Positions 428-48,152 of a stretch of DNA of 48,152 bases are shown here, piece after piece. Below the pieces are notes generated by a model, which made no database searches, was not told the origin of the DNA, and saw only the letters and a list, made by a program, of their open reading frames with translations. This DNA is from an uncultured Selenomonadales bacterium (GTDB lineage Bacteria > Bacillota > Negativicutes > Selenomonadales > Selenomonadaceae). The stretch's first letter is position 1. Every line of letters starts with the position of its first letter. The stretch spans positions 1 through 48,152 of the forward strand of contig CAMVJN010000001.1 of assembly GCA_947167825.1 (NCBI GenBank), in the 5' to 3' direction. The translations under genes were made by a program, and so were the position numbers.

Positions 428-1741
428 TCAATATCGCGCCAATGCGTCGTATTCTTCTTCTTCCGGCTCGTACTGACTAACACCCGCAAATACAGGCATT
501 GCAAATGTTAAGGCGAGACTGTCGGCATAGTCCGGGCTTTTGCCGATCTTCTCTTTGATTTTGTCTTTAGGTTCCAGAATGATTTTCCCGTTCCGTGCAA
601 ATTGATACTCGACAACAGACAACTCGCTTTTGAGTGTCGGCTCGTTTGGCAGCGCCCCGCCGTCTTCCAGCCATTTGCGAAGCTTGAAATACATTTCCGC
701 CCGTAGGTTGGCGTATCTGTCCGTATCCTGCGGAGAGCCGCCGAAATTGACCTCTGTTACCCGGTAATGCAACTGCCGCACACGGTCAACCACGCCCGCG
801 CCCATAGCTCCAACGTCTACAAACACGGCCTGCGGGTTATACGTGTTTATCGCGTTGATAAGAACGTCAGCCGCCTGCATCGTGTCTAATCCCCTGTGCA
901 CTTGCTGACGCTGACACCATAGCCCCTTACGCACGGTCAACACGGTAGCATCATCACCAAAACGCGCCACATCAAGGCCGAGAATCACGGGAGCGCCTGC
1001 AACGTCAGCTTCCGTCAATTCCCGCTTGCTTGCCGCCGTTACAAGGTCAATCGGAATCACAACATCAGACGCCGACGCGCTGAAATCGCAGTATAATTCC
1101 TGCCGTATTGCCATAGGCGTCATGTCTTTCTGCATATCCTCCAACTCGTCCGGCGGAATAATGCCCGTATCAGCGACGGTATACAAGCAGGAAAACCATG
1201 CAGGATCGTTTAAAGCCCGTTGATAGGTCTCGTAAAATTGATTCTGCCCTTTCGGCGTCCCGATGAATACCGCCCAGCCCTCGCGGTCAGACAATGCAGG
1301 GCGTAAAACCTCGTCCCATAACTCTTTTTTAATCTGCGCGTACTCGTCCAATATTGCCCCATCCCAGTATCCGCCGCGCAGTGCGTCGGGATGGTCAGCG
1401 CCGATAATGTAGATTCTTGCGCCGCTTCTTGGTGGATATGCGCTTGGCAATTCTATATACAATTCGCTTTCATTCACGCGCCGCCCCGGAATCACGCTGG
1501 AATAATATTTCAGGTATTCCCAAGCAATCATTTTCGCTTGATTGCGAAACGGTGCTACATATGCATAACGCGGAGCCTCTCGTTTGCAGAGCAGCGCCTG
1601 CTTAAGCATTTGATTAACTGTGCCGACAGTTTTCCCGAAGCGCCTGTGACAAACGAGCACTGCGAAACGGTGAGAATCCAACGCCGGGTGTATCACGCTT
1701 TCCCAGATAGGCCGCGGCGTGTATGGTATTTTTATACTCAT
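428..1741 (-). CDS. terL: Terminase large subunit.
   Basis: This 437-aa ORF has a Walker-A-like CHRRFGKT and a nuclease-half GLDVARFGDD. It sits after terS with an ATGA overlap and is paralogous to 47074..48152. Confidence 0.9.
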   Translation of the reverse strand: MSIKIPYTPRPIWESVIHPALDSHRFAVLVCHRRFGKTVGTVNQMLKQALLCKREAPRYAYVAPFRNQAKMIAWEYLKYYSSVIPGRRVNESELYIELPSAYPPRSGARIYIIGADHPDALRGGYWDGAILDEYAQIKKELWDEVLRPALSDREGWAVFIGTPKGQNQFYETYQRALNDPAWFSCLYTVADTGIIPPDELEDMQKDMTPMAIRQELYCDFSASASDVVIPIDLVTAASKRELTEADVAGAPVILGLDVARFGDDATVLTVRKGLWCQRQQVHRGLDTMQAADVLINAINTYNPQAVFVDVGAMGAGVVDRVRQLHYRVTEVNFGGSPQDTDRYANLRAEMYFKLRKWLEDGGALPNEPTLKSELSVVEYQFARNGKIILEPKDKIKEKIGKSPDYADSLALTFAMPVFAGVSQYEPEEEEYDALARY

Positions 1742-3431: not shown

Positions 3432-3511
3432 CGCAGAGTGGCGCCCCTTCGGGGGCGGTAATGCGGGCAAAGGCGGTCACAACCCCGCAAAATAAAAGGG
3501 AGGTATTAAAT

Positions 3512-3706
3512 ATGTATAGCGTATCAATTTACACCCGGCCACACTTCGAGGAGACGCCGGAAGGAATCATTACAAAATACTCCGTCACTGTTACGGACTG
3601 CTACGGCGTAGACTTAGCAAAAACTGGATTCCTGCCCAAAGTAGAAGCAATGCAAAATTTTAGGGCAATCAATAAACACTATAAAAAAGTTTTGAGGAGG
3701 AATTAA
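3512..3706 (+). CDS. Hypothetical protein of 64 aa.
   Basis: AAAGGGAGG lies upstream of the ATG at 3512, and the gene is packed tightly between its neighbours. Confidence 0.55.
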   Translation: MYSVSIYTRPHFEETPEGIITKYSVTVTDCYGVDLAKTGFLPKVEAMQNFRAINKHYKKVLRRN

Positions 3707-3708
3707 AA

Positions 3709-4359
3709 ATGACGAACACAGAAAAGATCATGGAAAAAATCAGGGCACTGATGGAGAAAACTGTCGAGAACGGAGCGACGGAGCAGGAGGCAATCGAAGC
3801 CGCGAAAGCCGCCCAAAGGCTCATGGCGAAATACAAAATCAGCGAAGTCACGGCGGAGAAAAAGGAAGAAATTGATTCAACCGAAATGGACATTTCCCGC
3901 CAATGGCAAATTATCCTCGCAAACGTCCTTGCAAAAAATCTTTGCTGTCGCTGCATACAGACCCACCCGGAGAAAAGAAAGGTTCGTTTCGTGGTCATGG
4001 GAAAAGAGGCAGATCGCAAAGTCTTTGAAAAAATGTATGAATCATTCTTTATCCTCATCTACAAGGGCGCGAAAGAGGCGAAGGCGAAGGCAAAAGCGGA
4101 GCACGGCCACACCCACGACGTAGAAAGCGCATATGCCGCCGGGTTCATACAGGCGATTGACGAGGCGATGGGAGAGCAATGCAGGGCACTGGCGCTTGTT
4201 GTCCCGGAAGACGTAAACCTTGCAACGCATAGGCGGTTCCCGAGCCTTGGCCGGGCAAGGGCGTGGAGAATCGACGGAAACAGCGCAACGCGCACGGCAC
4301 GCGCCGACGGCTACAGCGACGGGCGGAGCGCCGCAGGACAAAAGAGAATTGCAGGATAG
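3709..4359 (+). CDS. DUF2786-type protein, a family common on phages and plasmids.
   Basis: The N-terminal KIRALMEKTVENGATEQEAIEAAKAAQRLMAKYKI matches the DUF2786 signature as I recall it. Confidence 0.65.
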   Translation: MTNTEKIMEKIRALMEKTVENGATEQEAIEAAKAAQRLMAKYKISEVTAEKKEEIDSTEMDISRQWQIILANVLAKNLCCRCIQTHPEKRKVRFVVMGKEADRKVFEKMYESFFILIYKGAKEAKAKAKAEHGHTHDVESAYAAGFIQAIDEAMGEQCRALALVVPEDVNLATHRRFPSLGRARAWRIDGNSATRTARADGYSDGRSAAGQKRIAG

Positions 4360-4371
4360 GAGGCGGACACA

Positions 4372-4551
4372 ATGACGAAACAAGAGAAAGGGCGCATAAT
4401 TGAGAACATTGAATCAATAATAGAGAGAATAAAGGACACGCGAACCGAAATATGGCAAGCGAACATAAAGACCCTTGCAGACGAATACGCATATATGAGC
4501 ATGGGCGATGCTTGCGAACATTTAAGAGGCGTGATTAGATATTTGAACTAA
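4372..4551 (+). CDS. Hypothetical protein of 59 aa.
   Basis: It is too short for the ORF track. TAGGAGG lies upstream of the ATG at 4372, and I verified a 60-codon frame ending in TAA at 4549..4551. Confidence 0.5.
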   Translation: MTKQEKGRIIENIESIIERIKDTRTEIWQANIKTLADEYAYMSMGDACEHLRGVIRYLN

Positions 4552-4631
4552 GCCGAAACGCCCTCCGGGGCGTCTGCCGGGAATGGCCGCCCGGTACTGA
4601 TGAGGCAGGCCAAACAAAAGGAGGAATAGAA

Positions 4632-12795: not shown

Positions 12796-12971
12796 TCGTC
12801 TGACCTCCCATCGTATGCCTCGTCAGCCTTCCGGCACAGTTTTTCCCATTCGCTTTCCCGTCCCGGCTCGTCGTCGTCCGGCCAATAGGAATCAAGCAGC
12901 ATTTTGTTTTCTAATTCATTGTTCACGTTCAAAACCTCCTTTTGTTTCCACGCCTGCCGTGCCTGCCGCAT
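12783..12971 (-). CDS. Hypothetical acidic protein.
   Basis: This 62-aa ORF lies within the operon. Confidence 0.5.
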   Translation of the reverse strand: MRQARQAWKQKEVLNVNNELENKMLLDSYWPDDDEPGRESEWEKLCRKADEAYDGRSDEWQN

Positions 12972-13432
12972 TATGCAATCCTAGTTTGTAAAGCCGCCGC
13001 CGCCGCAAACACTTCCGAAAGCTCCTGCAAATCAGCGTACTTCTTTTGAAATTCCCGAAGCTCTGCAAGCGCGGTTTGCAAAAGGCTTTCCCGCAAATGT
13101 TCGTTTCCCATGGCTGAAATAATGGAAATATACGAATGCTTTTCTTCCGTCGCCCGGACAAAAGCGCGTACAGTTTTTGGCGCTTCATCCGCTACATGCT
13201 CGACCGTAACTGTCAAGCTGCGAAGGATTGCTCCCGCCTGCGTTTCGCGATACTTTTCCGCCGCCTTTTTATTGTCCCATTCAAAGCAGTTATGCAGCGG
13301 CGCGTTTTTCGGCGTTGATTCCTTGACAATAATCTCCGGCGATACCTTTCCATGCTTCTTCTCAAGCCCTTCGATAAACTCCCCTGCAACTTGCGCTTTT
13401 ACAGGCATTGCAAATTTCCATGAGTAAATCAT
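12971..13432 (-). CDS. Conserved hypothetical phage protein.
   Basis: AAAGGGGG lies upstream of the ATG at 13432, and the protein contains the motif CFEWDNKKAAEKYRETQA. Confidence 0.6.
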   Translation of the reverse strand: MIYSWKFAMPVKAQVAGEFIEGLEKKHGKVSPEIIVKESTPKNAPLHNCFEWDNKKAAEKYRETQAGAILRSLTVTVEHVADEAPKTVRAFVRATEEKHSYISIISAMGNEHLRESLLQTALAELREFQKKYADLQELSEVFAAAAALQTRIA

Positions 13433-13460
13433 TTCAAAACCCCCTTTGATATAATCTTGA

Positions 13461-13716
13461 CCCCACCAGCCACACCTAGCCACGCCCCGCCTCAACCTAA
13501 CAAGCCACGCCTAACCCGGACATACCACACCTGCCTTGCCCAACCATAACCTGCCTCGCCCCGCTCGGCCACGCCCCGCCTTACCTGCCATGCCAAAACC
13601 CGCCATGCATCAACCAACCGTAACAAAACTGACCTAGCCTCGCCTGCCTTGCCTAGCCTTGCCTAGCCCCGCCATACCTAACCGTGCCATACCGAGCCTC
13701 GCCCCGCCTGCCAAAA
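13461..13716. repeat. Non-coding, G-poor array of degenerate GCC-based short repeats.
   Basis: I counted 29 GCC trinucleotides. Nearly every G on the plus strand sits inside a GCC. The tandem CCTTGCCTAG occurs twice at 13647..13666, and the 14-mer GCCACGCCCCGCCT occurs at 13479 and 13568. Confidence 0.8.
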
Positions 13717-14364
13717 TCAAGCTACATGGAAACGTCCATAAGTGCCATCTTTGGAAGGACGCCATTCACCAATCCCGTTTGCGAATCCGCCAAGATTAAG
13801 GATATTCGTAATCTGCTCCGCCGAAATTGCTTGTTCGTTGTATGTGATTTCAAGCGTAACGCTCCACTCCGTAAACTCCGGGCGGTATCGAATATCCGCC
13901 GTCCCCTGCCCAATACGAACCATATCCTCACGGATAACAGGCGGTGCCCCTTCGATTTCCGCAAACTCCCCGGCAATATGGAAAGCTCCGCGAAGCGTCG
14001 TTTTCTTGTCAACCGCGCCTTGCTGATACGCCGCGTCGATTGCACTTGACTTGAACGCCAATACCGGGAAACCAAAACGACCTTTCTGCACCGCCGCCAT
14101 GATTTCATCATCCGTCATGGAATCAAACTCCGGCTTTTCGGAAAGCCAATACAAAGCCGCTGCAAAATCAACCATAGGACGCTTTGCGTCTTTGCCAGTC
14201 GTTGCCTTCTTCATTTGCTTGTAAAGCATTTCCTTTTTCGCCTTTTCGCTCCATGCGTGAACGATCAGCGGCGAATCTCCGACCAGTTTCAAAGAAAACC
14301 TTTTCAGCTTGATACCCGGAATCGAGATTGCCATTTCCTCTTTTGCTTTTTTCGTTGTTGCCAT
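13717..14364 (-). CDS. Conserved hypothetical phage protein of 215 aa.
   Basis: It has a good RBS (AAAGGAG) and the C-terminal motif GIGEWRPSKDGTYGRFHV. I do not recognise the family. Confidence 0.7.
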   Translation of the reverse strand: MATTKKAKEEMAISIPGIKLKRFSLKLVGDSPLIVHAWSEKAKKEMLYKQMKKATTGKDAKRPMVDFAAALYWLSEKPEFDSMTDDEIMAAVQKGRFGFPVLAFKSSAIDAAYQQGAVDKKTTLRGAFHIAGEFAEIEGAPPVIREDMVRIGQGTADIRYRPEFTEWSVTLEITYNEQAISAEQITNILNLGGFANGIGEWRPSKDGTYGRFHVA

Positions 14365-14742: not shown

Positions 14743-14837
14743 GCCAATACCCCCAAAAGGAACCAAGCCTCGACCAAAAAAGCTGCAATCAATACCGCAT
14801 CTTTCCCCTCATCCGTCAAGCTGTCCCAAATCTTCAT
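14739..14837 (-). CDS. Tiny hydrophobic peptide of 32 aa.
   Basis: GGAGTG forms the RBS, and an ATGA overlap couples it to the downstream gene. Confidence 0.3.
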   Translation of the reverse strand: MKIWDSLTDEGKDAVLIAAFLVEAWFLLGVLA

Positions 14838-15157
14838 GCTACTTTCACTCCTTCCGGTATTTCATACGCATCCATTCCCCGTGCTTGCCAATGCTCATAT
14901 CGGCAGCCGCGGCTCCGCCTCCATCCCGGGGCAAACAACACGGCGTCGCAAGACTTCATCAGATTCGTTGCCATTCGCAAGATCGTGTAATCGTCCAAGT
15001 CCTGGAAGTCCTTGAAATACTCCAACGGATTGACAATCACAAAATCATACTCGCCTTCCCTGCGCCACAACTCTTCATACAGTTTCGCCAGCGCAGCCGC
15101 TTTCTCGCGGTTCTCCTGCCGCCCGCCGAACGGGTGTGAAAGATAAATTCTTCGCAT
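14834..15157 (-). CDS. DUF4406 / nucleoside 2-deoxyribosyltransferase-like protein (tentative).
   Basis: The pattern is IYLSHPFGG...NP...CDAVLFAPGWRRSRGCRYEH. Confidence 0.5.
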   Translation of the reverse strand: MRRIYLSHPFGGRQENREKAAALAKLYEELWRREGEYDFVIVNPLEYFKDFQDLDDYTILRMATNLMKSCDAVLFAPGWRRSRGCRYEHWQARGMDAYEIPEGVKVA

Positions 15158-15172
15158 TACATCCCCCTCCAA

Positions 15173-15286
15173 TCACATTTTCCCCAGCGTCCACGACGCC
15201 CAAATACCAACCCAAAGCCCGAACGTCAGACCGGCAAGAAAGCCGAGCATCGAAGCCGTCAGGATAAACCGCAAAAAATTATCCAT
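15173..15286 (-). CDS. Small membrane protein of 37 aa.
   Basis: MDNFLRFILTASMLGFLAGLTFGLWVGIWASWTLGKM. Its ATG overlaps the upstream stop. Confidence 0.4.
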   Translation of the reverse strand: MDNFLRFILTASMLGFLAGLTFGLWVGIWASWTLGKM

Positions 15287-15494
15287 CGTTATCACCCAAT
15301 GCATCCGCCCAACACTGGCCGCAATGCCCAAGTTCAAAAACGCGCTCCGTGTCCTCATATCCACAAACATCTTTATTGACTGCTTTCAATCCGGCATCAT
15401 GAGGACAAGCGCCGTTTTCAATAACTTCTTCAAAAAACGTCGGGGAGTTTACACGCAACATTTTCAAAGCTTCGACAACCTTCTTCTTACTCAC
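15279..15494 (-). CDS. Hypothetical Cys-containing protein.
   Basis: A GTG start at 15494 is preceded by GGAGGGG. Confidence 0.5.
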   Translation of the reverse strand: MSKKKVVEALKMLRVNSPTFFEEVIENGACPHDAGLKAVNKDVCGYEDTERVFELGHCGQCWADALGDNDG

Positions 15495-15584
15495 GTTGTT
15501 ACCCCTCCAAACCTGCCCAACCGGGCCCAGCCTCACGCCACCATGCCATGCGCCGCCTCAACTCACCACGCCTAGCCTGCCATG
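15495..15584. repeat. Second, shorter GCC-repeat intergenic tract.
   Basis: There are 10 GCC trinucleotides in 90 nt, with the same G-poor character as 13461..13716. Confidence 0.6.
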
Positions 15585-15797
15585 TTATGTCATGACGTTC
15601 TCAATCTGCTCCATCGAAATCCCTGTAGCCTGCGCGAATCGTTGCGGATAATAAATGTACTGCCCGCGCCCGAACCGCGCTTTCTTCGGCTGGATATATA
15701 CGCCCCAATCGACCGTCTTTGTGCGGAGCAAATGCCTCACGGTTTCTTGCGGCTGGTTCAGTAGCCGCGCCACGCCTTCCGTCCGTAACTGCTTCAT
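15585..15797 (-). CDS. Small HTH DNA-binding protein (excisionase/MerR-like, tentative).
   Basis: It is 70 aa long, and EGVARLLNQPQETVRHLLR looks like an HTH. Confidence 0.5.
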   Translation of the reverse strand: MKQLRTEGVARLLNQPQETVRHLLRTKTVDWGVYIQPKKARFGRGQYIYYPQRFAQATGISMEQIENVMT

Positions 15798-18474: not shown

Positions 18475-19491
18475 ATGAGAAACCCTAACGGCTACGGCTC
18501 CATCTACAAACTCCACGGCGCACGCCGAAAGCCTTTCGCCGTCTGTGTCACGGCAGGCCGGAAACCGGATGGCCGTCTCGTGCGGAAATATATCGGCTAT
18601 TACGAGACGCGGCGGGACGCGCTTTCTGCCCTTGCAGCCTATAACGATAACCCGTTCGACGTTCGCGCTCGTGACGTTACTCTTTTGGAGCTATGGGAGA
18701 AGTGGAAAGAGTATCGAACCGGGCGCGGGAAGAAGCTGCCGGACAACTACAAAAACGCCTTTCGTCATTGCGCCGCTCTCCACAACAAACGATTTATAGA
18801 CATAACCACAGCGCAAATCCAAGCCACTGTGGATAACGTATCATCCATGCCACATACCGCCGTCCATGTTCGGATGGTTTTCGGGCTGCTATATAAGTAC
18901 GCTAAAATCATAAACCTTACAGCGTCAAACCGAGCGCAAGGCGTAGAAGTCCCCAAACTCCCAAAAAGCACAAAGCACAAGCCTTTTTCCGCGGACGAAT
19001 TGAAAAAGCTATGGCAAGACACAGACGACTTCGGCGTCCAGCTTGCCCTTGTCTATTGTTATACCGGCCTGCGTCCATCCGAGCTAATAGAAATGCGCCG
19101 CGAGAACGTACACCTGAAAGAAAGATATATGATCGGCGGAATGAAAACCGAGGCGGGAATCAACCGCTGCATACCCATAGCGGAAAAGATTGTCCCGCTG
19201 ATTGAAGGCTTTCTGGCCCGCCCGTCCGAATATCTATTGACCGCCCCGGACGGGACACACCCGCAGGATTTACAAGCGTTGACCTATAGATATTGGAGGA
19301 AGTCAAAATCCAAAATTGTCCTGGACCACTACCCGCACGACGGACGCCACACTTGCGAAACAATGCTGGACAATGCCCACGTCGCAAAGCGCACAATCCA
19401 GCTCATAATCGGCCACGCCGGGGGAGACGTTGACGCTTTATATACCCACAAGACGCAAGCCCAGTTAATACAGGCGATCAACAAGATATAA
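18475..19491 (+). CDS. int: Tyrosine recombinase / phage integrase.
   Basis: It has TGLRPSEL, HDGRHTCETML, IGHAGG and LYTH catalytic-region motifs, and an N-terminal SAM-like domain. Confidence 0.95.
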   Translation: MRNPNGYGSIYKLHGARRKPFAVCVTAGRKPDGRLVRKYIGYYETRRDALSALAAYNDNPFDVRARDVTLLELWEKWKEYRTGRGKKLPDNYKNAFRHCAALHNKRFIDITTAQIQATVDNVSSMPHTAVHVRMVFGLLYKYAKIINLTASNRAQGVEVPKLPKSTKHKPFSADELKKLWQDTDDFGVQLALVYCYTGLRPSELIEMRRENVHLKERYMIGGMKTEAGINRCIPIAEKIVPLIEGFLARPSEYLLTAPDGTHPQDLQALTYRYWRKSKSKIVLDHYPHDGRHTCETMLDNAHVAKRTIQLIIGHAGGDVDALYTHKTQAQLIQAINKI

Positions 19492-44672: not shown

Positions 44673-46370
44673 TTACATTCCCCCCATGATGGAACCAATC
44701 GACCGCTCGTCGGGATTGATCTCGGACATAAGCCGCGCAGCCTCAACGCCGTCTTTGAGCGGGCCGGCCATAGCCGCCGCATTTTCAAGCTGCTTCTGCT
44801 GTTGCTGTGCCGCCGCTCTGTCCTGCCGCATCTTTGCCACGTCGTCCTCGTCCCGGAGTACGCTTTCCGGCGTGCCGGTATATTGCGCGTGCTTTCTGAT
44901 CGTGGCGTCGAGGTCGAGGTTGTCCATGATATCCGGCGATATACCCGCAAGGTTTCCGGCCAAAGCAAGCGTCTTTTCCATTGCCGGAGCTGCCACAGCC
45001 TTCTGCGCCTGCGCCAAGAGGGAAATAAACTCCGCCTTGATTGTCCCCTCCTGCCCCTGCAATTCCTGCGGCATAGGCGGGAAAAGCCCATTGCGAAGGC
45101 AAATCTCAAACGCCCTCTTGGTCAGCGGAGCAAGTACCTCGTTGTGCATTTGCTCCAACACGGGCGAAAGCATAAGCAGTTTTTCCTCGTGCCTTTCCGC
45201 AACTTCCCGCGCCGTCATTTCCGGCGTGTCATTGTTTGCCAGCATCACAAACAAATCATTGAAAAAAGCAGCCCCGATTTGAGACTGCTTAAACTGTATC
45301 GTTTGTAAGACTTCCTCGCGGCTCCCCGTCGCCTCAAACAAAGGCCGGATTCCCGCCCCGATTGTCGGGTCAGGGACAAGCGTCATTTTGCCCGGCAAGC
45401 GGTTGACTTTCCCAACGGAAGCGGGGACGATCATCGGCGGATTCGCCCGGTTCTCCAATAGCTGCATATTGACTGTTTCCAGCTTTTGAAGCTGCATGCA
45501 GTTCCCGAGGGCATTATGTCCCGGCCCCGTCCCGTATATCCCGTTTGCTATCGTCGTCCAGCGCGGCATCAGGAATGGACATTCATTGAAGCCGGATATC
45601 TTCAGAAACTTCTCCTGCGCCGTGCTCTCGAAGTAGTACGACCGCCACGGGAAATTACCAACGCCGAAAGCGTCCGGGTCATAGTTCGGGTTGCGCTCGA
45701 TAAGCATTTGAATCTCAAAGTCTGACTTCTCGTCATTTTGGTTGTAGGCCGTCTTGACCGCCTCGGAAACAACGTCAAGGCCAAACTCCTCGACCATTTG
45801 CCACGCCTTTAGGCGCATCTTTCGCGCCAGCTTTGCCATCCGCCCCCGCGCGTCCACGTCTCCGGCGTATTCTCCGCAAGTGTACGGCCTGCACCATATC
45901 GCCGTCCCGAGGTCTTCCAACATCAGCGCCCCCGCCGTGCCGAATTGCGAAAGCTCCGCCTCGATCTGCAGCAGGGTATTGTATACGTTTGACTTTGCAT
46001 AAATATCCATCAGGATTTCTTTGCAATCATCTAACCATAGTTTGACAGTATGATATGAGGCCAGCTCTTGGTCAGCCAGCCCCAACTCAAACCACGGCCT
46101 TGAGGGGGAAGTCAGGCCGCTATGCAACCCCGCCGCACATTTGCCGTGCGCCTCCATGGGGTACGGGTCAAGAAGAAAATAATCTCGCCGTTTGCCCTCG
46201 CTTGTGCGGTTGTCCTCGTCAAAACGTCCCCGGGCAGGATTGATGTACCGGGAAAGCTGTCGCCAGGTGTGCTCCTGCTGCTGTCTCTCCTCGTACATCT
46301 GCGCCACAATGCGCCGTTTCTTTTTGAGTAAATCCGCGTCAGCGAGAACGGCCTGCAAAAGCCCGTCCAT
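44673..46370 (-). CDS. Portal (head-to-tail connector, T7 gp8-like family).
   Basis: It is 565 aa long, and WRQLSRYINPARGRF...LLDPYPMEAHGKCAAGLHSGLTSPSRPWFEL is typical of podovirus connectors. Confidence 0.85.
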   Translation of the reverse strand: MDGLLQAVLADADLLKKKRRIVAQMYEERQQQEHTWRQLSRYINPARGRFDEDNRTSEGKRRDYFLLDPYPMEAHGKCAAGLHSGLTSPSRPWFELGLADQELASYHTVKLWLDDCKEILMDIYAKSNVYNTLLQIEAELSQFGTAGALMLEDLGTAIWCRPYTCGEYAGDVDARGRMAKLARKMRLKAWQMVEEFGLDVVSEAVKTAYNQNDEKSDFEIQMLIERNPNYDPDAFGVGNFPWRSYYFESTAQEKFLKISGFNECPFLMPRWTTIANGIYGTGPGHNALGNCMQLQKLETVNMQLLENRANPPMIVPASVGKVNRLPGKMTLVPDPTIGAGIRPLFEATGSREEVLQTIQFKQSQIGAAFFNDLFVMLANNDTPEMTAREVAERHEEKLLMLSPVLEQMHNEVLAPLTKRAFEICLRNGLFPPMPQELQGQEGTIKAEFISLLAQAQKAVAAPAMEKTLALAGNLAGISPDIMDNLDLDATIRKHAQYTGTPESVLRDEDDVAKMRQDRAAAQQQQKQLENAAAMAGPLKDGVEAARLMSEINPDERSIGSIMGGM

Positions 46371-46663: not shown

Positions 46664-47074
46664 TCATCCCTTCCTTCCGATCGCCTTTCGGATATTCCCA
46701 CGAATGCGCTCACTATACCCTTCGCTTTCCGGGTCCCCGTAAGAACCCGCCGCATGCCTCGTACTGACAGCACCACCAAGTTTTGACGCCTCCACCCTTG
46801 CGGCAGCGTCCACGTCGTCAAAATACATTTTTTCCTTGTCGGCTTTTAATTTATTGTATTCTTCATCCGTATATAAACTTTCCCCGCTCTCCTCGTCCCA
46901 CCGAGTAGGCGGTTTATACTTTGTTGGCTGTCTCGTTGCGTGTGCCGTTTCCAACACTTTATTTGCTGTTTTTTTGTACTGATCAAATGATAACGGGCCG
47001 CTTTTATTTGTCTTGGAAAATGCGTCGTAATACTTTCGCACTGTTTCGTCGTTATATCCATAATACCAGCCCAT
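46664..47074 (-). CDS. Hypothetical protein present only in prophage B.
   Basis: This 136-aa ORF has no counterpart between terL and the small ORF in prophage A. Confidence 0.55.
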   Translation of the reverse strand: MGWYYGYNDETVRKYYDAFSKTNKSGPLSFDQYKKTANKVLETAHATRQPTKYKPPTRWDEESGESLYTDEEYNKLKADKEKMYFDDVDAAARVEASKLGGAVSTRHAAGSYGDPESEGYSERIRGNIRKAIGRKG

Positions 47075-48152
47075 TAATATTCCTCCCTTATATAATCTGC
47101 CAGTGGGTCATATTGTTCTTCGTTCTCGTCCCGGTATGCGTCCCACTTGGACGGTATATGTATCGGCATGGCAAACGTCAAAGCTAGACTGTCAGCCAGG
47201 TCAGGCGACTTGCCAATCTTTTCCTTGATCTTCGCCTTCGGTTCCAGGATGATTTTGCCGTTGCGGGCAAACGAATACTCAACGACGGAAAGCTCGCTCT
47301 TGAGCGTCGGCTCGTTCGGCAGCGCCCCGCCGCCCTCAAGCCACGCACGAACCTTAAAATACATCTCCGCCCGTAGGTTGGCGTATTTCTCCGTATGCTG
47401 CGGAGAGCCGGCAAAATTGACCTCCGTCACGTTGTAATGGAGCTGCCGCGCCCGGTCAATGACCGCCGCCCCCATGGCTCCAACGTCAACGAACACGGCG
47501 TCGGGCTTGTATGTGTTGATTGCATTTATCAAAACGTCCGTCGCCTGCATCGTGTCGAGCCCTCGGTATACGGCGGGCTTGTAGCAGTGTAGCCCCTTAC
47601 GGACAGTCAGCACAGTGGAATCGTCGCCGAATCTTGCAATATCCATACCTATTATAATAGGCGCCCCGGCTACGTCGGCCTCGGTCAGCTCTCTCTTGAC
47701 TGCCTCCGATACCAAGTCAATCGGTATCACCACGTCAGACGCCGACGCGCTGAAATCGCAATATAGCTCCTGCCGGATTGCCATAGGCGTCATGTCACGC
47801 TCCATGTCCTGCAATTCGTCTGGCGGTATGATGCCCGTCTCGTCAACGCGGTACAGGCATGAGAACCACGAGCTATCCGTCAAAGCTCTCTGGTACATAT
47901 CAAAGAACTGGTTTTGTCCCTTGGGGGTCCCGATGAACACAGCCCAGCCTTCGCGGTCAGACAACGCAGGGCGAAGAACCTCGTCCCATAGCTCTTTTTT
48001 AATCTGCGCGTACTCGTCAAGGATTGCCCCATCCCAGTATCCGCCGCGCAGGGCGTCGGGGTGATCGGCGCCGATGATGTATATTCTCGCGCCGCTCCTT
48101 GGTGGATATGCGCTTGGCAATTCTATATACAATTCGCTTTCATTCACGCGCC
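47074..48152 (-). CDS. terL: Terminase large subunit, with its 5' end truncated by the window edge.
   Basis: It is colinear with residues of about 90-437 of the 428..1741 product, and the reading frame is open to the window end. Confidence 0.9.
   Translation of the reverse strand, partial: RVNESELYIELPSAYPPRSGARIYIIGADHPDALRGGYWDGAILDEYAQIKKELWDEVLRPALSDREGWAVFIGTPKGQNQFFDMYQRALTDSSWFSCLYRVDETGIIPPDELQDMERDMTPMAIRQELYCDFSASASDVVIPIDLVSEAVKRELTEADVAGAPIIIGMDIARFGDDSTVLTVRKGLHCYKPAVYRGLDTMQATDVLINAINTYKPDAVFVDVGAMGAAVIDRARQLHYNVTEVNFAGSPQHTEKYANLRAEMYFKVRAWLEGGGALPNEPTLKSELSVVEYSFARNGKIILEPKAKIKEKIGKSPDLADSLALTFAMPIHIPSKWDAYRDENEEQYDPLADYIREEY

What the first reader, a model, noticed from the sequence alone, without database searches (positions are those of the whole stretch)
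13433..13716. 284-bp non-coding, G-poor array of GCC-based pentamer-like repeats in a tightly packed early operon
Seen: genes in this operon mostly overlap or abut, yet 13433..13716 has no plausible ORF. Between 13461 and 13716 I count 29 GCC trinucleotides, typically spaced 5 nt apart (for example GCCTC GCCTG CCTTG CCTAG CCTTG CCTAG CCCCG CC). Nearly every G on the plus strand sits inside a GCC. Longer units recur: GCCACGCCCCGCCT at 13479 and 13568, GCCTCGCCCCGC at 13553 and 13696, and the tandem CCTTGCCTAG twice at 13647..13666. Two repeat blocks flank a more AT-rich centre (about 13605..13630). On the sense (minus-strand) RNA this is a GGC-repeat, C-poor tract with several GGGG runs. An antisense transcript would instead be C-rich and G-poor, which is the established signature of a Rho utilisation site. 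Other possibilities are a protein-binding array (centromere-like, second origin or regulator sink) or a structured or G-quadruplex RNA. I know of no described element that matches it.
Basis: seen in the sequence. Interest (0 to 1): 0.65.

Follow-up and report, generated by a model that had tools for sequence, protein, structure and literature searches.

The report
Phage VIPR guide-RNA repeat array
The G-poor "GCC pentamer" tract encodes an array of VIPR guide RNAs (GGY-NN repeats) next to the gene for their Cas7-like partner protein; this phage RNA-guided DNA-silencing system was first described in two 2026 preprints, so the tract is real and very probably functional, but it is no longer an unknown kind of element.

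Summary
Window 13433-13716 has no credible ORF, holds 29 GCC (window mean 8.4 per 284 nt) and shows a sharp period of 4.9-5 nt.

The genes here run on the minus strand, so the sense RNA is (GGY-NN)n.

The upstream gene, 13717-14364(-), encodes a 215-aa protein that:
- matches the solved SUSP1 Vipr protein (PDB 36pp; profile E 2e-9);
- keeps its GGY-binding residues;
- folds as a Cas7-type RAMP.

In 62 of 77 loci carrying a homologue, from at least seven phyla, a GGY period-5 array lies within about 1.6 kb on the same strand; none lies on the opposite strand. Separately, BLAST with the tract found the same array, with homologues of both proteins, in Mycobacterium phage Quico. A 153-aa partner gene, 12971-13432(-), co-occurs in 68 of 78 loci.

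This is a VIPR locus (Viral Interference Programmable Repeat; bioRxiv 10.64898/2026.04.26.720920 and .720927). In that system Vipr protomers bind each GGY and the NN pairs read double-stranded DNA with a one-base skip.

The tract parses into about five units separated by GGCA|GG junctions, and a sixth solitary unit sits at 15514-15581(-).

The Rho, centromere, origin and G-quadruplex readings are not supported. Expression, processing sites and targets remain untested.

Verdict: new member of a known kind.

The parts
13717..14364 (-). vipr gene: 215-aa RAMP (Cas7-like) protein, predicted to bind the GGY motifs of the repeat RNA
   Evidence: phmmer against PDB 36pp_D 'SUSP1 Vipr protein' gives E 2.7e-7; the profile gives E 2.1e-9, with the G-loop GIGEWRP aligned to GVGDWRP. 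The AF2 model has pLDDT 77. Its Foldseek top hits are all Cas7/Csm3/Cmr4/Cas7-11/type VII RAMPs. It belongs to phrog_4652, function unknown.
13458..13712 (-). main vrRNA array: about 46 GGY-NN pentamers on the sense strand, starting 4 nt after the vipr stop codon
13645..13708 (-). unit U1: 12 perfect GGY-NN pentamers plus GGCA. NN = GG GA TC AT AC TA AT GG TA AA TA AA
   Evidence: Boundaries are inferred from the GGCA|GG junctions.
13586..13644 (-). unit U2: 11 pentamers in register plus GGCA.
13552..13585 (-). unit U3: 6 pentamers plus GGCA (short unit)
13532..13551 (-). unit U4: GGTTAT GGTTG GGCAA plus GGCA (very short unit or fragment)
13458..13531 (-). unit U5: 12 pentamers (3 degenerate), then GGCT and two more pentamers. 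It is followed by the ribosome-binding site and ATG of the next gene.
12971..13432 (-). 153-aa conserved partner gene (vap-like accessory; phrog_15946)
   Evidence: A tblastn homologue lies beside the vipr homologue in 68 of 78 loci, including QUICO_58. The AF2 model has pLDDT 88: an alpha/beta N-terminal domain plus a 40-residue C-terminal helix. There is no significant structural or Pfam match; the weak Foldseek hits are winged-helix DNA binders, E 0.7 or worse.
15514..15581 (-). solitary upstream vrRNA-like unit U0: GGCA, then 12 pentamers (9 with GGY), then GGCA. It begins 3 nt after the stop codon of the HTH gene 15585-15797.
   Evidence: This is the only other place in the 48-kb window, on either strand, with at least 7 of 12 in-register GGY. 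Sequence. The mechanically listed ORF 15279-15536 most likely starts at GTG 15494, behind GGAGGGG.

Best explanation
The tract is the guide-RNA array of a phage-borne VIPR system.

Proposed mechanism:
1. It is transcribed with the minus-strand early operon. The transcript is (GGY-NN)n.
2. The transcript is cut into units of about 55-65 nt. Here these are five units in the main array, separated by GGCA|GG junctions where the register slips by one base, plus one solitary unit 1.8 kb upstream.
3. The adjacent 215-aa Vipr protein, a minimal Cas7-like RAMP, polymerises along each unit at one protomer per pentamer. It buries G1, G2 and Y3 and exposes the two variable bases.
4. The exposed NN pairs of about 12 consecutive repeats read a double-stranded DNA target in a gapped code (NN-x-NN-x...). 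The skipped base usually falls on the codon wobble position.
5. The bound filament blocks transcription of the target, typically a competing phage, prophage or satellite.
6. The conserved 153-aa neighbour is the accessory (vap-like) component.

Status of each step:
- Shown here: repeat anatomy, strand, homology and fold of the protein, conserved three-part synteny, and array content that differs between close relatives.
- Taken from the two VIPR preprints: RNP formation, filament structure, the one-base-skip code and repression.
- Inferred for this locus: transcription, cutting at the GGCA|GG junctions, and the nature of the target.
For: 1. Protein
- The 215-aa product matches the solved SUSP1 Vipr protein (E 2.7e-7, profile E 2.1e-9).
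- In that alignment SUSP1 R138, D177, W178 and R179 fall on window R161, E200, W201 and R202. In the structure paper these residues hold G1 and G2 and contact Y3. A weaker N-terminal stretch puts H17 on H36.
- H36, R161, W201 and R202 are invariant in 43 homologues.
- The model has an RRM-like core, a long beta-hairpin 143-164 in the position of the thumb, and a C-terminal glycine-rich loop. Foldseek returns only CRISPR RAMPs at the top.

2. RNA
- A logo from 1860 in-register pentamers of 203 units in these loci gives G1 95%, G2 88%, Y3 95% pyrimidine (0% G), and N4/N5 0.09 and 0.04 bits. This is the published YNNGG/GGY-NN rule.
- Constant-register units are 8-15 pentamers long, mode 10-11. 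The published range is 9-16.

3. Linkage
- 62 of 77 loci with a Vipr homologue carry such an array on the gene's strand and 0 carry one on the other strand. Hosts include Clostridia, Selenomonadales, Actinomycetota, Alphaproteobacteria, Bacteroidota, Gemmatimonadota and Chloroflexota.
- The first array lies upstream of the gene in 9 loci, directly downstream in 26 and after the partner gene in 27.
- Mycobacterium phage Quico was found independently by BLAST of the tract itself. It has the array in an unannotated gap followed by homologues of both proteins.

4. Array variability
- Phages whose Vipr is 83-86% identical have the same flanks and the same GGCAGGC punctuation but entirely different NN content and unit number.

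5. Context
- The window is a temperate phage: integrase, terminase, portal, RecT/YqaJ. It has no CRISPR-like repeats.
- No unit has a self-target at 80% NN match or better, as reported for VIPR.
Against: - There is no direct RNA evidence for this phage. The only RNA-type run holding part of the tract is a metatranscriptome with one low-depth contig of a 95%-similar relative that covers only the 3' end of the array.
- The units lack the roughly 40-nt structured 3' tail described for the characterised type II systems. They abut directly, so the processing mechanism is unknown.
- Two units (U3, U4) are shorter than the published 9-16 repeats, and U2 has lost GGY in 5 of 11 pentamers.
- No natural target was found. 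Full-length one-base-skip patterns of U0, U1 and U5 gave no exact match in IMG/VR. The full and 10-repeat U1 patterns gave none in JGI metagenomes.
- Sequence similarity to SUSP1 Vipr is significant only over the C-terminal 60 residues.
Confidence: 0.9

Rival explanations
1. Rho utilisation site. A plus-strand (antisense) transcript would be 46% C and 14% G, and would load Rho to stop antisense transcription through the early operon.
For: The plus-strand composition is indeed C-rich and G-poor.
Against: - A rut site needs C-richness. It does not need a strict 5-nt register with two invariant bases and two information-free bases.
- The composition follows trivially from GGY repeats on the other strand.
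- The same array travels with a RAMP gene across phyla whose dependence on Rho is not uniform (established knowledge, not tested here), and its position relative to neighbouring genes changes.
- No promoter-like site drives plus-strand transcription into the tract from the left.
Confidence: 0.03
2. Double-stranded DNA protein-binding array: a partition centromere, a second replication origin with iterons, or a titration sink for a phage regulator.
For: Dense short direct repeats in a non-coding gap resemble iteron or centromere arrays.
Against: - A 5-bp repeat is half a helical turn and shorter than the footprint of known iteron or centromere binders (7-bp heptads for omega, 10-11 bp for ParR or Rep iterons; established knowledge).
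- The array is strictly co-oriented with the vipr gene: 62 on the same strand, 0 on the other.
- The variable NN content differs completely between close relatives. A site that must be recognised by one DNA-binding protein would not be expected to do that.
- No ParA/ParB or Rep gene is linked to it.
Confidence: 0.03
3. Self-structured or G-quadruplex RNA acting without a dedicated protein, for example as a processing or stability element.
For: The sense RNA is G-rich with several GGGG runs.
Against: - GGGG runs occur only where NN is GG. NN = GG makes up only 5.6% of repeats across loci, so G-tracts are not the conserved feature.
- No inverted repeats were found.
- No Rfam family matches.
- The conserved feature is GGY every 5 nt, which a solved Vipr-RNA structure explains.
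Confidence: 0.02
4. RNA decoy, sponge or antitoxin. The repeat RNA only sequesters the adjacent protein, as in type III toxin-antitoxin ToxI/ToxN or CsrB/CsrA, and has no guide function.
For: A tandem repeat RNA next to the gene of its binding protein is also the layout of type III TA loci. No target was found for any unit.
Against: - The protein is a RAMP, not an endoribonuclease toxin of the ToxN, CptN or TenpN families.
- A pure sponge has no need for NN positions that stay information-free yet differ between relatives.
- The homologous SUSP1 and P. fulva systems have been shown to use NN for DNA recognition.
Confidence: 0.03
5. Decayed remnant of a coding gene.
For: None beyond the absence of an ORF.
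Against: Relatives carry the same kind of non-coding array here rather than a gene. A 5-nt periodicity is incompatible with codon structure.
Confidence: 0.01

Closest known systems
VIPR systems (Viral Interference Programmable Repeat): Vipr protein plus vrRNA. Type II examples are Escherichia phage SUSP1 and a Pseudomonas fulva prophage (bioRxiv 10.64898/2026.04.26.720920; structures in 10.64898/2026.04.26.720927; PDB 36pp)
   Same: - A ~20-kDa RAMP protein with conserved GGY-contact residues.
- Sense-strand GGY-NN pentamer repeats in the intergenic regions flanking the gene, in units of about 12 repeats.
- One conserved accessory gene.
- Phage-borne, with one solitary guide plus a multi-guide array.
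- No self-targets.
   Different: - Only the C-terminal third of the protein is recognisably similar in sequence.
- The units have no ~40-nt pseudoknotted 3' tail. They abut at GGCA|GG junctions with a one-base register slip.
- The accessory protein (153 aa, phrog_15946) could not be matched to the published vap1-6, because their sequences are not in the held text.
- The host is a gut or rumen Clostridia-type bacterium, not a Gammaproteobacterium.
[quoted passage not shown]
   Same: The legend says adjacent vrRNAs share a 1-nt overlapping position, so that the end of one marks the start of the next. That fits the 4-nt GGCA|GGC junctions, seen 202 times in the related loci.
   Different: The figure and the type assignment are not available to me, so the identity of the two patterns is inferred and not verified.
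Class 1 CRISPR effector backbone (Cas7/Csm3/Cmr4 on crRNA)
   Same: Same protein fold. One protomer per fixed RNA step, with a thumb that flips bases out.
   Different: - The step is 5 nt rather than 6.
- The protein reads the sequence of three of the five bases.
- The guide is non-contiguous.
- There are no CRISPR repeats, no cas1/cas2 and no other cas genes in the window.
TRAP-trp leader RNA (11 (G/U)AG triplets separated by 2-3 nt)
   Same: A conserved triplet plus a 2-nt spacer gives a 5-nt RNA period read by one protein subunit per repeat (established knowledge).
   Different: TRAP is an unrelated 75-aa ring protein. Its spacers carry no information and it regulates attenuation, not DNA targeting. 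This is analogy only.
Type III toxin-antitoxin RNA arrays (ToxI)
   Same: A tandem repeat RNA encoded beside its binding protein and cut into units.
   Different: ToxI has 36-nt repeats, the protein is an RNase toxin, and there is no internal 5-nt code.

Membership tests
VIPR system | Vipr protein: a small (~20 kDa) RAMP with an RRM core, a glycine-rich loop and a thumb | tested here: met
   215 aa. The AF2 model has a beta1-alpha core, a long hairpin at 143-164 and the C-terminal loop GFANGIGEWRP. The 19 Foldseek matches with E of 1e-3 or better are all CRISPR RAMPs.
VIPR system | Sequence homology to an experimentally characterised Vipr | tested here: met
   PDB 36pp_D, SUSP1 Vipr: E 2.7e-7 for the single sequence and 2.1e-9 for the profile. 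The significant part is residues 149-211; the N-terminal stretch is only weakly aligned.
VIPR system | Residues that hold G1, G2 and Y3 in the SUSP1 structure (H17, R138, D177, W178, R179) | tested here: met
   They align to H36, R161, E200, W201 and R202. H36, R161, W201 and R202 are invariant in 43 homologues. Position 200 is E or D (pattern). The H17/H36 pairing rests on a weak alignment segment.
VIPR system | vrRNA made of tandem YNNGG (GGY-NN) repeats, with GGY conserved and NN hypervariable | tested here: met
   Window: 12 of 12 in-register GGY in U1. Logo over 1860 pentamers: G 95%, G 88%, Y 95%, N4/N5 0.09 bits or less. NN content differs entirely between phages whose Vipr is 83-86% identical.
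VIPR system | 9-16 repeats per vrRNA | tested here: inconclusive
   U0, U1, U2 and U5 have 11-12 repeats. U3 and U4 have 6 and 3. Unit borders are inferred from register slips and not from RNA ends.
VIPR system | Conserved structured 3' tail after the repeat tract (type II) | tested here: not met
   Units abut at GGCA|GG with no spacer of about 40 nt. The preprint states that other types have different architectures, including tail-less staggered arrays. This therefore argues against type II, not against VIPR.
VIPR system | Arrays lie in the intergenic regions flanking vipr, on the same strand | tested here: met
   The array starts 4 nt after the vipr stop codon. Across 77 loci, 62 have an array on the same strand and 0 on the opposite strand.
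VIPR system | Minimal locus with one accessory (vap) gene | tested here: inconclusive
   A conserved 153-aa partner is present in 68 of 78 loci. Its identity with one of vap1-6 cannot be checked. Its fold has no significant match; the weak hits are winged-helix proteins.
VIPR system | Mostly phage- or prophage-borne; no CRISPR array or other cas genes | tested here: met
   Integrase, terminase, portal and RecT/YqaJ are in the window. No CRISPR-like tandem repeats.
VIPR system | vrRNAs are expressed and co-purify with Vipr | not testable with these tools
   Only one low-depth metatranscriptome contig of a relative touches the array's 3' end.
VIPR system | NN pairs match natural DNA targets under the one-base-skip rule; no self-targets | tested here: inconclusive
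   - No self-target above 67-73% NN match.
- No exact full-length match in IMG/VR or JGI metagenomes.
- The first 8 repeats of U1 match, in frame, the conserved GESITYMG motif of SPO2-type phage DNA polymerases: 35 of 40 hits, against 3 hits for the same NN pairs in shuffled order. The remaining 4 repeats do not match.
Rho utilisation (rut) site | C-rich, G-poor RNA on a strand that is actually transcribed, giving Rho-dependent 3' ends | tested here: inconclusive
   The composition criterion is met on the plus strand. No promoter-like site was found for that strand and no transcript data exist. The strict 5-nt GGY register is not a rut property.
CRISPR array | Direct repeats of 24-40 nt separated by unique spacers, with cas genes | tested here: not met
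   The repeat period is 5 nt. TRF and the repeat finder show no 24-40-nt repeat/spacer pattern.
Known RNA families (Rfam 15) | A covariance-model match | tested here: not met
   Nothing reaches gathering score on the tract. Only chance-level lncRNA matches appear at E of 0.8 or worse.

The most novel reading that the evidence does not exclude
This locus and its roughly 6,500 unnamed relatives may form a VIPR lineage whose biology goes beyond what the preprints characterised.

- The guides are tail-less and separated only by a GGCA|GG one-base register slip. That implies a processing or measuring mechanism different from the pseudoknot-capped type II guides, for example cleavage by Vipr itself or by a host RNase at the slip.
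- The accessory protein (phrog_15946) has a fold with no solved relative.
- At least one guide, U1, may be aimed at the conserved GESITYMG motif of SPO2-type DNA polymerases of rival Firmicutes phages.

The lineage also reaches cluster F mycobacteriophages, a tractable laboratory system in which the array is currently unannotated.
Probability: 0.3. Interest if true: 0.5.

Novelty: new member of a known kind. Interest (0 to 1): 0.35.

Why it matters
The tract is not an oddity of one phage. It is an instance of a recently discovered class of RNA-guided DNA recognition, so its correct annotation is "vrRNA array + vipr + accessory gene".

What this gives in practice:
- A simple sequence rule finds such arrays without any protein search: at least 7 of 12 in-register GGY on one strand, next to a phrog_4652 gene.
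- The family is very widespread and unnamed: 6,529 clusters in the large protein collection, none with a functional name.
- There are concrete, testable unit boundaries for a tail-less array type.
- The same module is flagged in Mycobacterium phages Quico and Florinda, where standard laboratory phage genetics could test it.

For the phage itself, the six guides are most likely weapons or shields against competing mobile elements in the gut or rumen community.

Tried and rejected
- Rfam, at gathering score and at E up to 10, found nothing on the tract.
- My early ideas, before the literature hit, were a TRAP-like ring binder, a type III TA antitoxin RNA, a Chi-like cluster, and an assembly signal for a protein binding 5 nt per subunit. 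I dropped them once the neighbouring protein matched Vipr.
- The hammerhead and twister ribozymes at 3432-4614 are not part of a ribozyme-interspersed vrRNA array. The DNA between them is coding and has no GGY register.
- Target search, local: I compared all 203 units against about 0.5 Mb of held loci (1.0 Mb counting both strands) under skip 0, 1, 2 and 3. There was no difference between the rules, because the database is far too small.
- Target search, collections:
  - Exact full-length NNx patterns of U1, U5 and U0 in IMG/VR: 0 hits.
  - U1 full and 10-repeat patterns in JGI metagenomes: 0 hits.
  - A 10-repeat unit of phage Quico in IMG/VR: 0 hits.
- The half-patterns of U1 gave the DNA-polymerase lead.
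  - Other units do not converge on those contigs.
  - Four human-gut Heliusvirales polymerase genes do not carry the match, at 15/24 or less.
  - I therefore keep it only as a lead.
- Public reads: only low-depth DNA metagenome contigs and one metatranscriptome contig were found. They give no transcript ends.
- The 153-aa partner has no Pfam, PDB-sequence or significant Foldseek match.
- Type assignment (I-VII) failed because the preprint's supplementary tables are not held.

Full report
**Observation**

The tract 13433-13716 lies between two minus-strand genes, 13717-14364 and 12971-13432. It has no credible ORF.

- Composition is C 131, A 68, T 45, G 40.
- There are 29 GCC, against a window mean of 8.4 per 284 nt. 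This is the maximum of the whole window.
- 29 of the 40 G sit in GCC.
- GCC-to-GCC spacing is 5 nt in 16 cases, 10 nt in 4 and 15 nt in 3. The Fourier peak is at 4.9 nt.
- On the minus strand, up to 12 of 12 consecutive in-register pentamers begin with GGY. Block shuffles never exceed 5, and the whole plus strand never exceeds 3.

**Strand and anatomy**

The operon is on the minus strand, so the sense RNA reads (GGY-NN)n. The register slips by one base at recurring GGCA|GG junctions. This explains the period of 4.9 and divides the tract into units:

| Unit | Coordinates | Content |
|---|---|---|
| U1 | 13708-13645 | 12 perfect pentamers + GGCA |
| U2 | 13644-13586 | 11 pentamers, five degenerate (the AT-rich centre) + GGCA |
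| U3 | 13585-13552 | 6 pentamers + GGCA |
| U4 | 13551-13532 | fragment + GGCA |
| U5 | 13531-13458 | 12 pentamers, then GGCT and two more pentamers |

A sixth, solitary unit U0 lies at 15581-15514. It starts with GGCA|GGC three bases after the stop codon of the HTH gene. It is the only other place in the 48 kb that reaches at least 7 of 12 in-register GGY.

**Comparative evidence**

A search with the upstream 215-aa protein returned 9 viral loci, 67 genome loci and 1 metagenome contig.

- A strict chain detector found a GGY period-5 array on the gene's strand in 62 of 77 loci and on the opposite strand in none.
- The first array lies upstream of the gene in 9 loci, directly downstream in 26, and behind one intervening gene in 27.
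- Hosts span Clostridia, Selenomonadales, Actinomycetota, Alphaproteobacteria, Bacteroidota, Gemmatimonadota and Chloroflexota.
- BLAST of the tract itself independently hit an unannotated 400-nt gap in Mycobacterium phages Quico and Florinda. The gap is followed by genes 36% and 25% identical to the window's 215-aa and 153-aa proteins.
- The 153-aa gene accompanies the 215-aa gene in 68 of 78 loci.

The conserved module therefore has three parts: protein A, protein B and a sense-strand pentamer array. Their order is free.

**Identification**

The 215-aa protein has no Pfam family and belongs to phrog_4652, function unknown. It does match PDB 36pp, "SUSP1 Vipr protein" (E 2.7e-7; profile E 2.1e-9).

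A literature search led to two 2026 preprints that define VIPR systems:

- a ~20-kDa ancestral RAMP (Vipr) and vrRNAs of 9-16 YNNGG repeats, in which GGY is conserved and NN hypervariable;
- one protomer bound per repeat, with GGY sequestered and NN pairing with double-stranded DNA under a one-base-skip rule;
- transcriptional repression of rival phages, prophages and satellites;
- seven types with different accessory (vap) genes and array layouts, including "staggered" arrays whose units overlap by 1 nt.

**Membership tests**

- Fold: the AF2 model (pLDDT 77) has an RRM-like core, a long hairpin and a glycine-rich C-terminal loop. Its Foldseek matches are Cas7, Csm3, Cmr4, Cas7-11 and type VII backbones.
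- Contact residues: SUSP1 R138, D177, W178 and R179 align to R161, E200, W201 and R202. H17 aligns, weakly, to H36. These residues are invariant or conservatively substituted in the family.
- RNA logo: over 1860 pentamers, G 95%, G 88%, Y 95%, with 0.09 and 0.04 bits at N4 and N5.
- Unit length: the mode is 10-11 pentamers.
- Variability: arrays of phages with 83-86% identical Vipr share flanks and GGCAGGC punctuation but no NN content, and they differ in unit number.
- Context: the window is a temperate phage without CRISPR repeats.
- Self-targeting: no unit matches the window itself above about 70% NN.

The one feature not met is the structured 3' tail of the type II systems. Here the units abut, which fits the published "staggered" layout. 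The 4-nt junction GGCAGGC occurs 202 times in the related arrays.

**What remains open**

- Expression. No usable RNA data exist. One metatranscriptome contig of a relative covers the partner gene's 5' part and the last 85 nt of the array, then diverges. No promoter or terminator is predicted in or beside the tract, which is consistent with co-transcription with the operon.
- Processing. Cutting at GGCA|GG is inferred only.
- Accessory protein. It has a confident model (pLDDT 88) but no significant structural or family match. The weak hits are winged-helix DNA binders, in line with the DNA-binding vap proteins the preprint describes for some types.
- Targets.
  - Exact full-length one-base-skip patterns found nothing.
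  - The first eight NN of U1 gave 40 IMG/VR hits. Of these, 35 lie in frame on the conserved motif GESITYMG of SPO2-type family-A DNA polymerases of Firmicutes phages.
  - The same NN pairs in shuffled order gave 3 hits.
  - Against this lead, the last four repeats do not match, other units do not converge on those contigs, and four gut Heliusvirales polymerases lack the match.
  - I rate this a lead, not a finding.

**Rivals**

- The antisense Rho-site idea rests only on composition, which is the mirror image of GGY repeats.
- DNA-level arrays are unlikely for three reasons: a 5-bp period is too short for known duplex binders, the array is strictly co-oriented with vipr, and its content is not conserved.
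- G-quadruplexes are incidental, because GG is only 5.6% of NN.
- A pure sponge or antitoxin role does not explain information-free but ever-changing NN positions.
- Together I give these rivals about 0.1.

**Verdict**

This is a real, functional element that is correctly explained as a VIPR guide-RNA array with its vipr and accessory genes. It is a new member of a kind described in 2026, not a new kind. Residual novelty lies in the tail-less, GGCA-punctuated unit structure, the uncharacterised 153-aa partner, and the presence of the module in cluster F mycobacteriophages.

Noticed in passing
window 3432-3488 (+) and 4551-4614 (+): A Twister-P5 ribozyme (55.5 bits) and a type II hammerhead ribozyme (62.2 bits), both well above Rfam gathering scores. 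They sit in intergenic gaps of a plus-strand gene block. The DNA between them is coding, and they are not associated with GGY repeats.
   Followed up: partly
window 15514-15581 (-): A solitary sixth vrRNA-like unit directly after the HTH gene 15585-15797. It overlaps the mechanically listed start of ORF 15279-15536, whose real start is probably GTG 15494 behind GGAGGGG.
   Followed up: yes
L010 = Mycobacterium phage Quico NC_028751 37290-37685; also Florinda NC_028889 37490-37731: An unannotated ~400-nt gap in the early lytic operon of cluster F (Cheoctovirus) phages is a GGY-NN array. QUICO_57 and QUICO_58, annotated as hypothetical, are homologues of the Vipr and 153-aa partner proteins.
   Followed up: partly
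L078 2060-2179; L228 1514-1677; L227 1134-1218; L023, L027, L029; L033, L065, L074: Many relatives carry extra vrRNA units or a second array: after the partner gene, before vipr, or on both sides. Array number and position are fluid around a fixed gene pair.
   Followed up: partly
window 428-1741 (-) and 47074-48147 (-): Two ORFs with terminase large-subunit N and C domains lie at the two ends of the window. With the integrase (18475-19491) and a T7-type portal (44673-46370), the window looks like a whole temperate phage genome, possibly a circularly closed contig.
   Followed up: no
These may be origin iterons within the replication gene.
   Followed up: no
window 14834-15172 (-): A DUF4406 / nucleoside 2-deoxyribosyltransferase-like gene lies upstream in the same operon. 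The gut phages whose DNA polymerase was examined also carry such a gene next to the polymerase.
   Followed up: no
L079-L118 (IMG/VR contigs): The gapped pattern GGnGAnTCnATnACnTAnATnGG selects the motif GESITYMG of SPO2-type phage family-A DNA polymerases in 35 of 40 hits, with varied wobble bases. This shows how a one-base-skip code can track a conserved peptide across divergent genes.
   Followed up: partly
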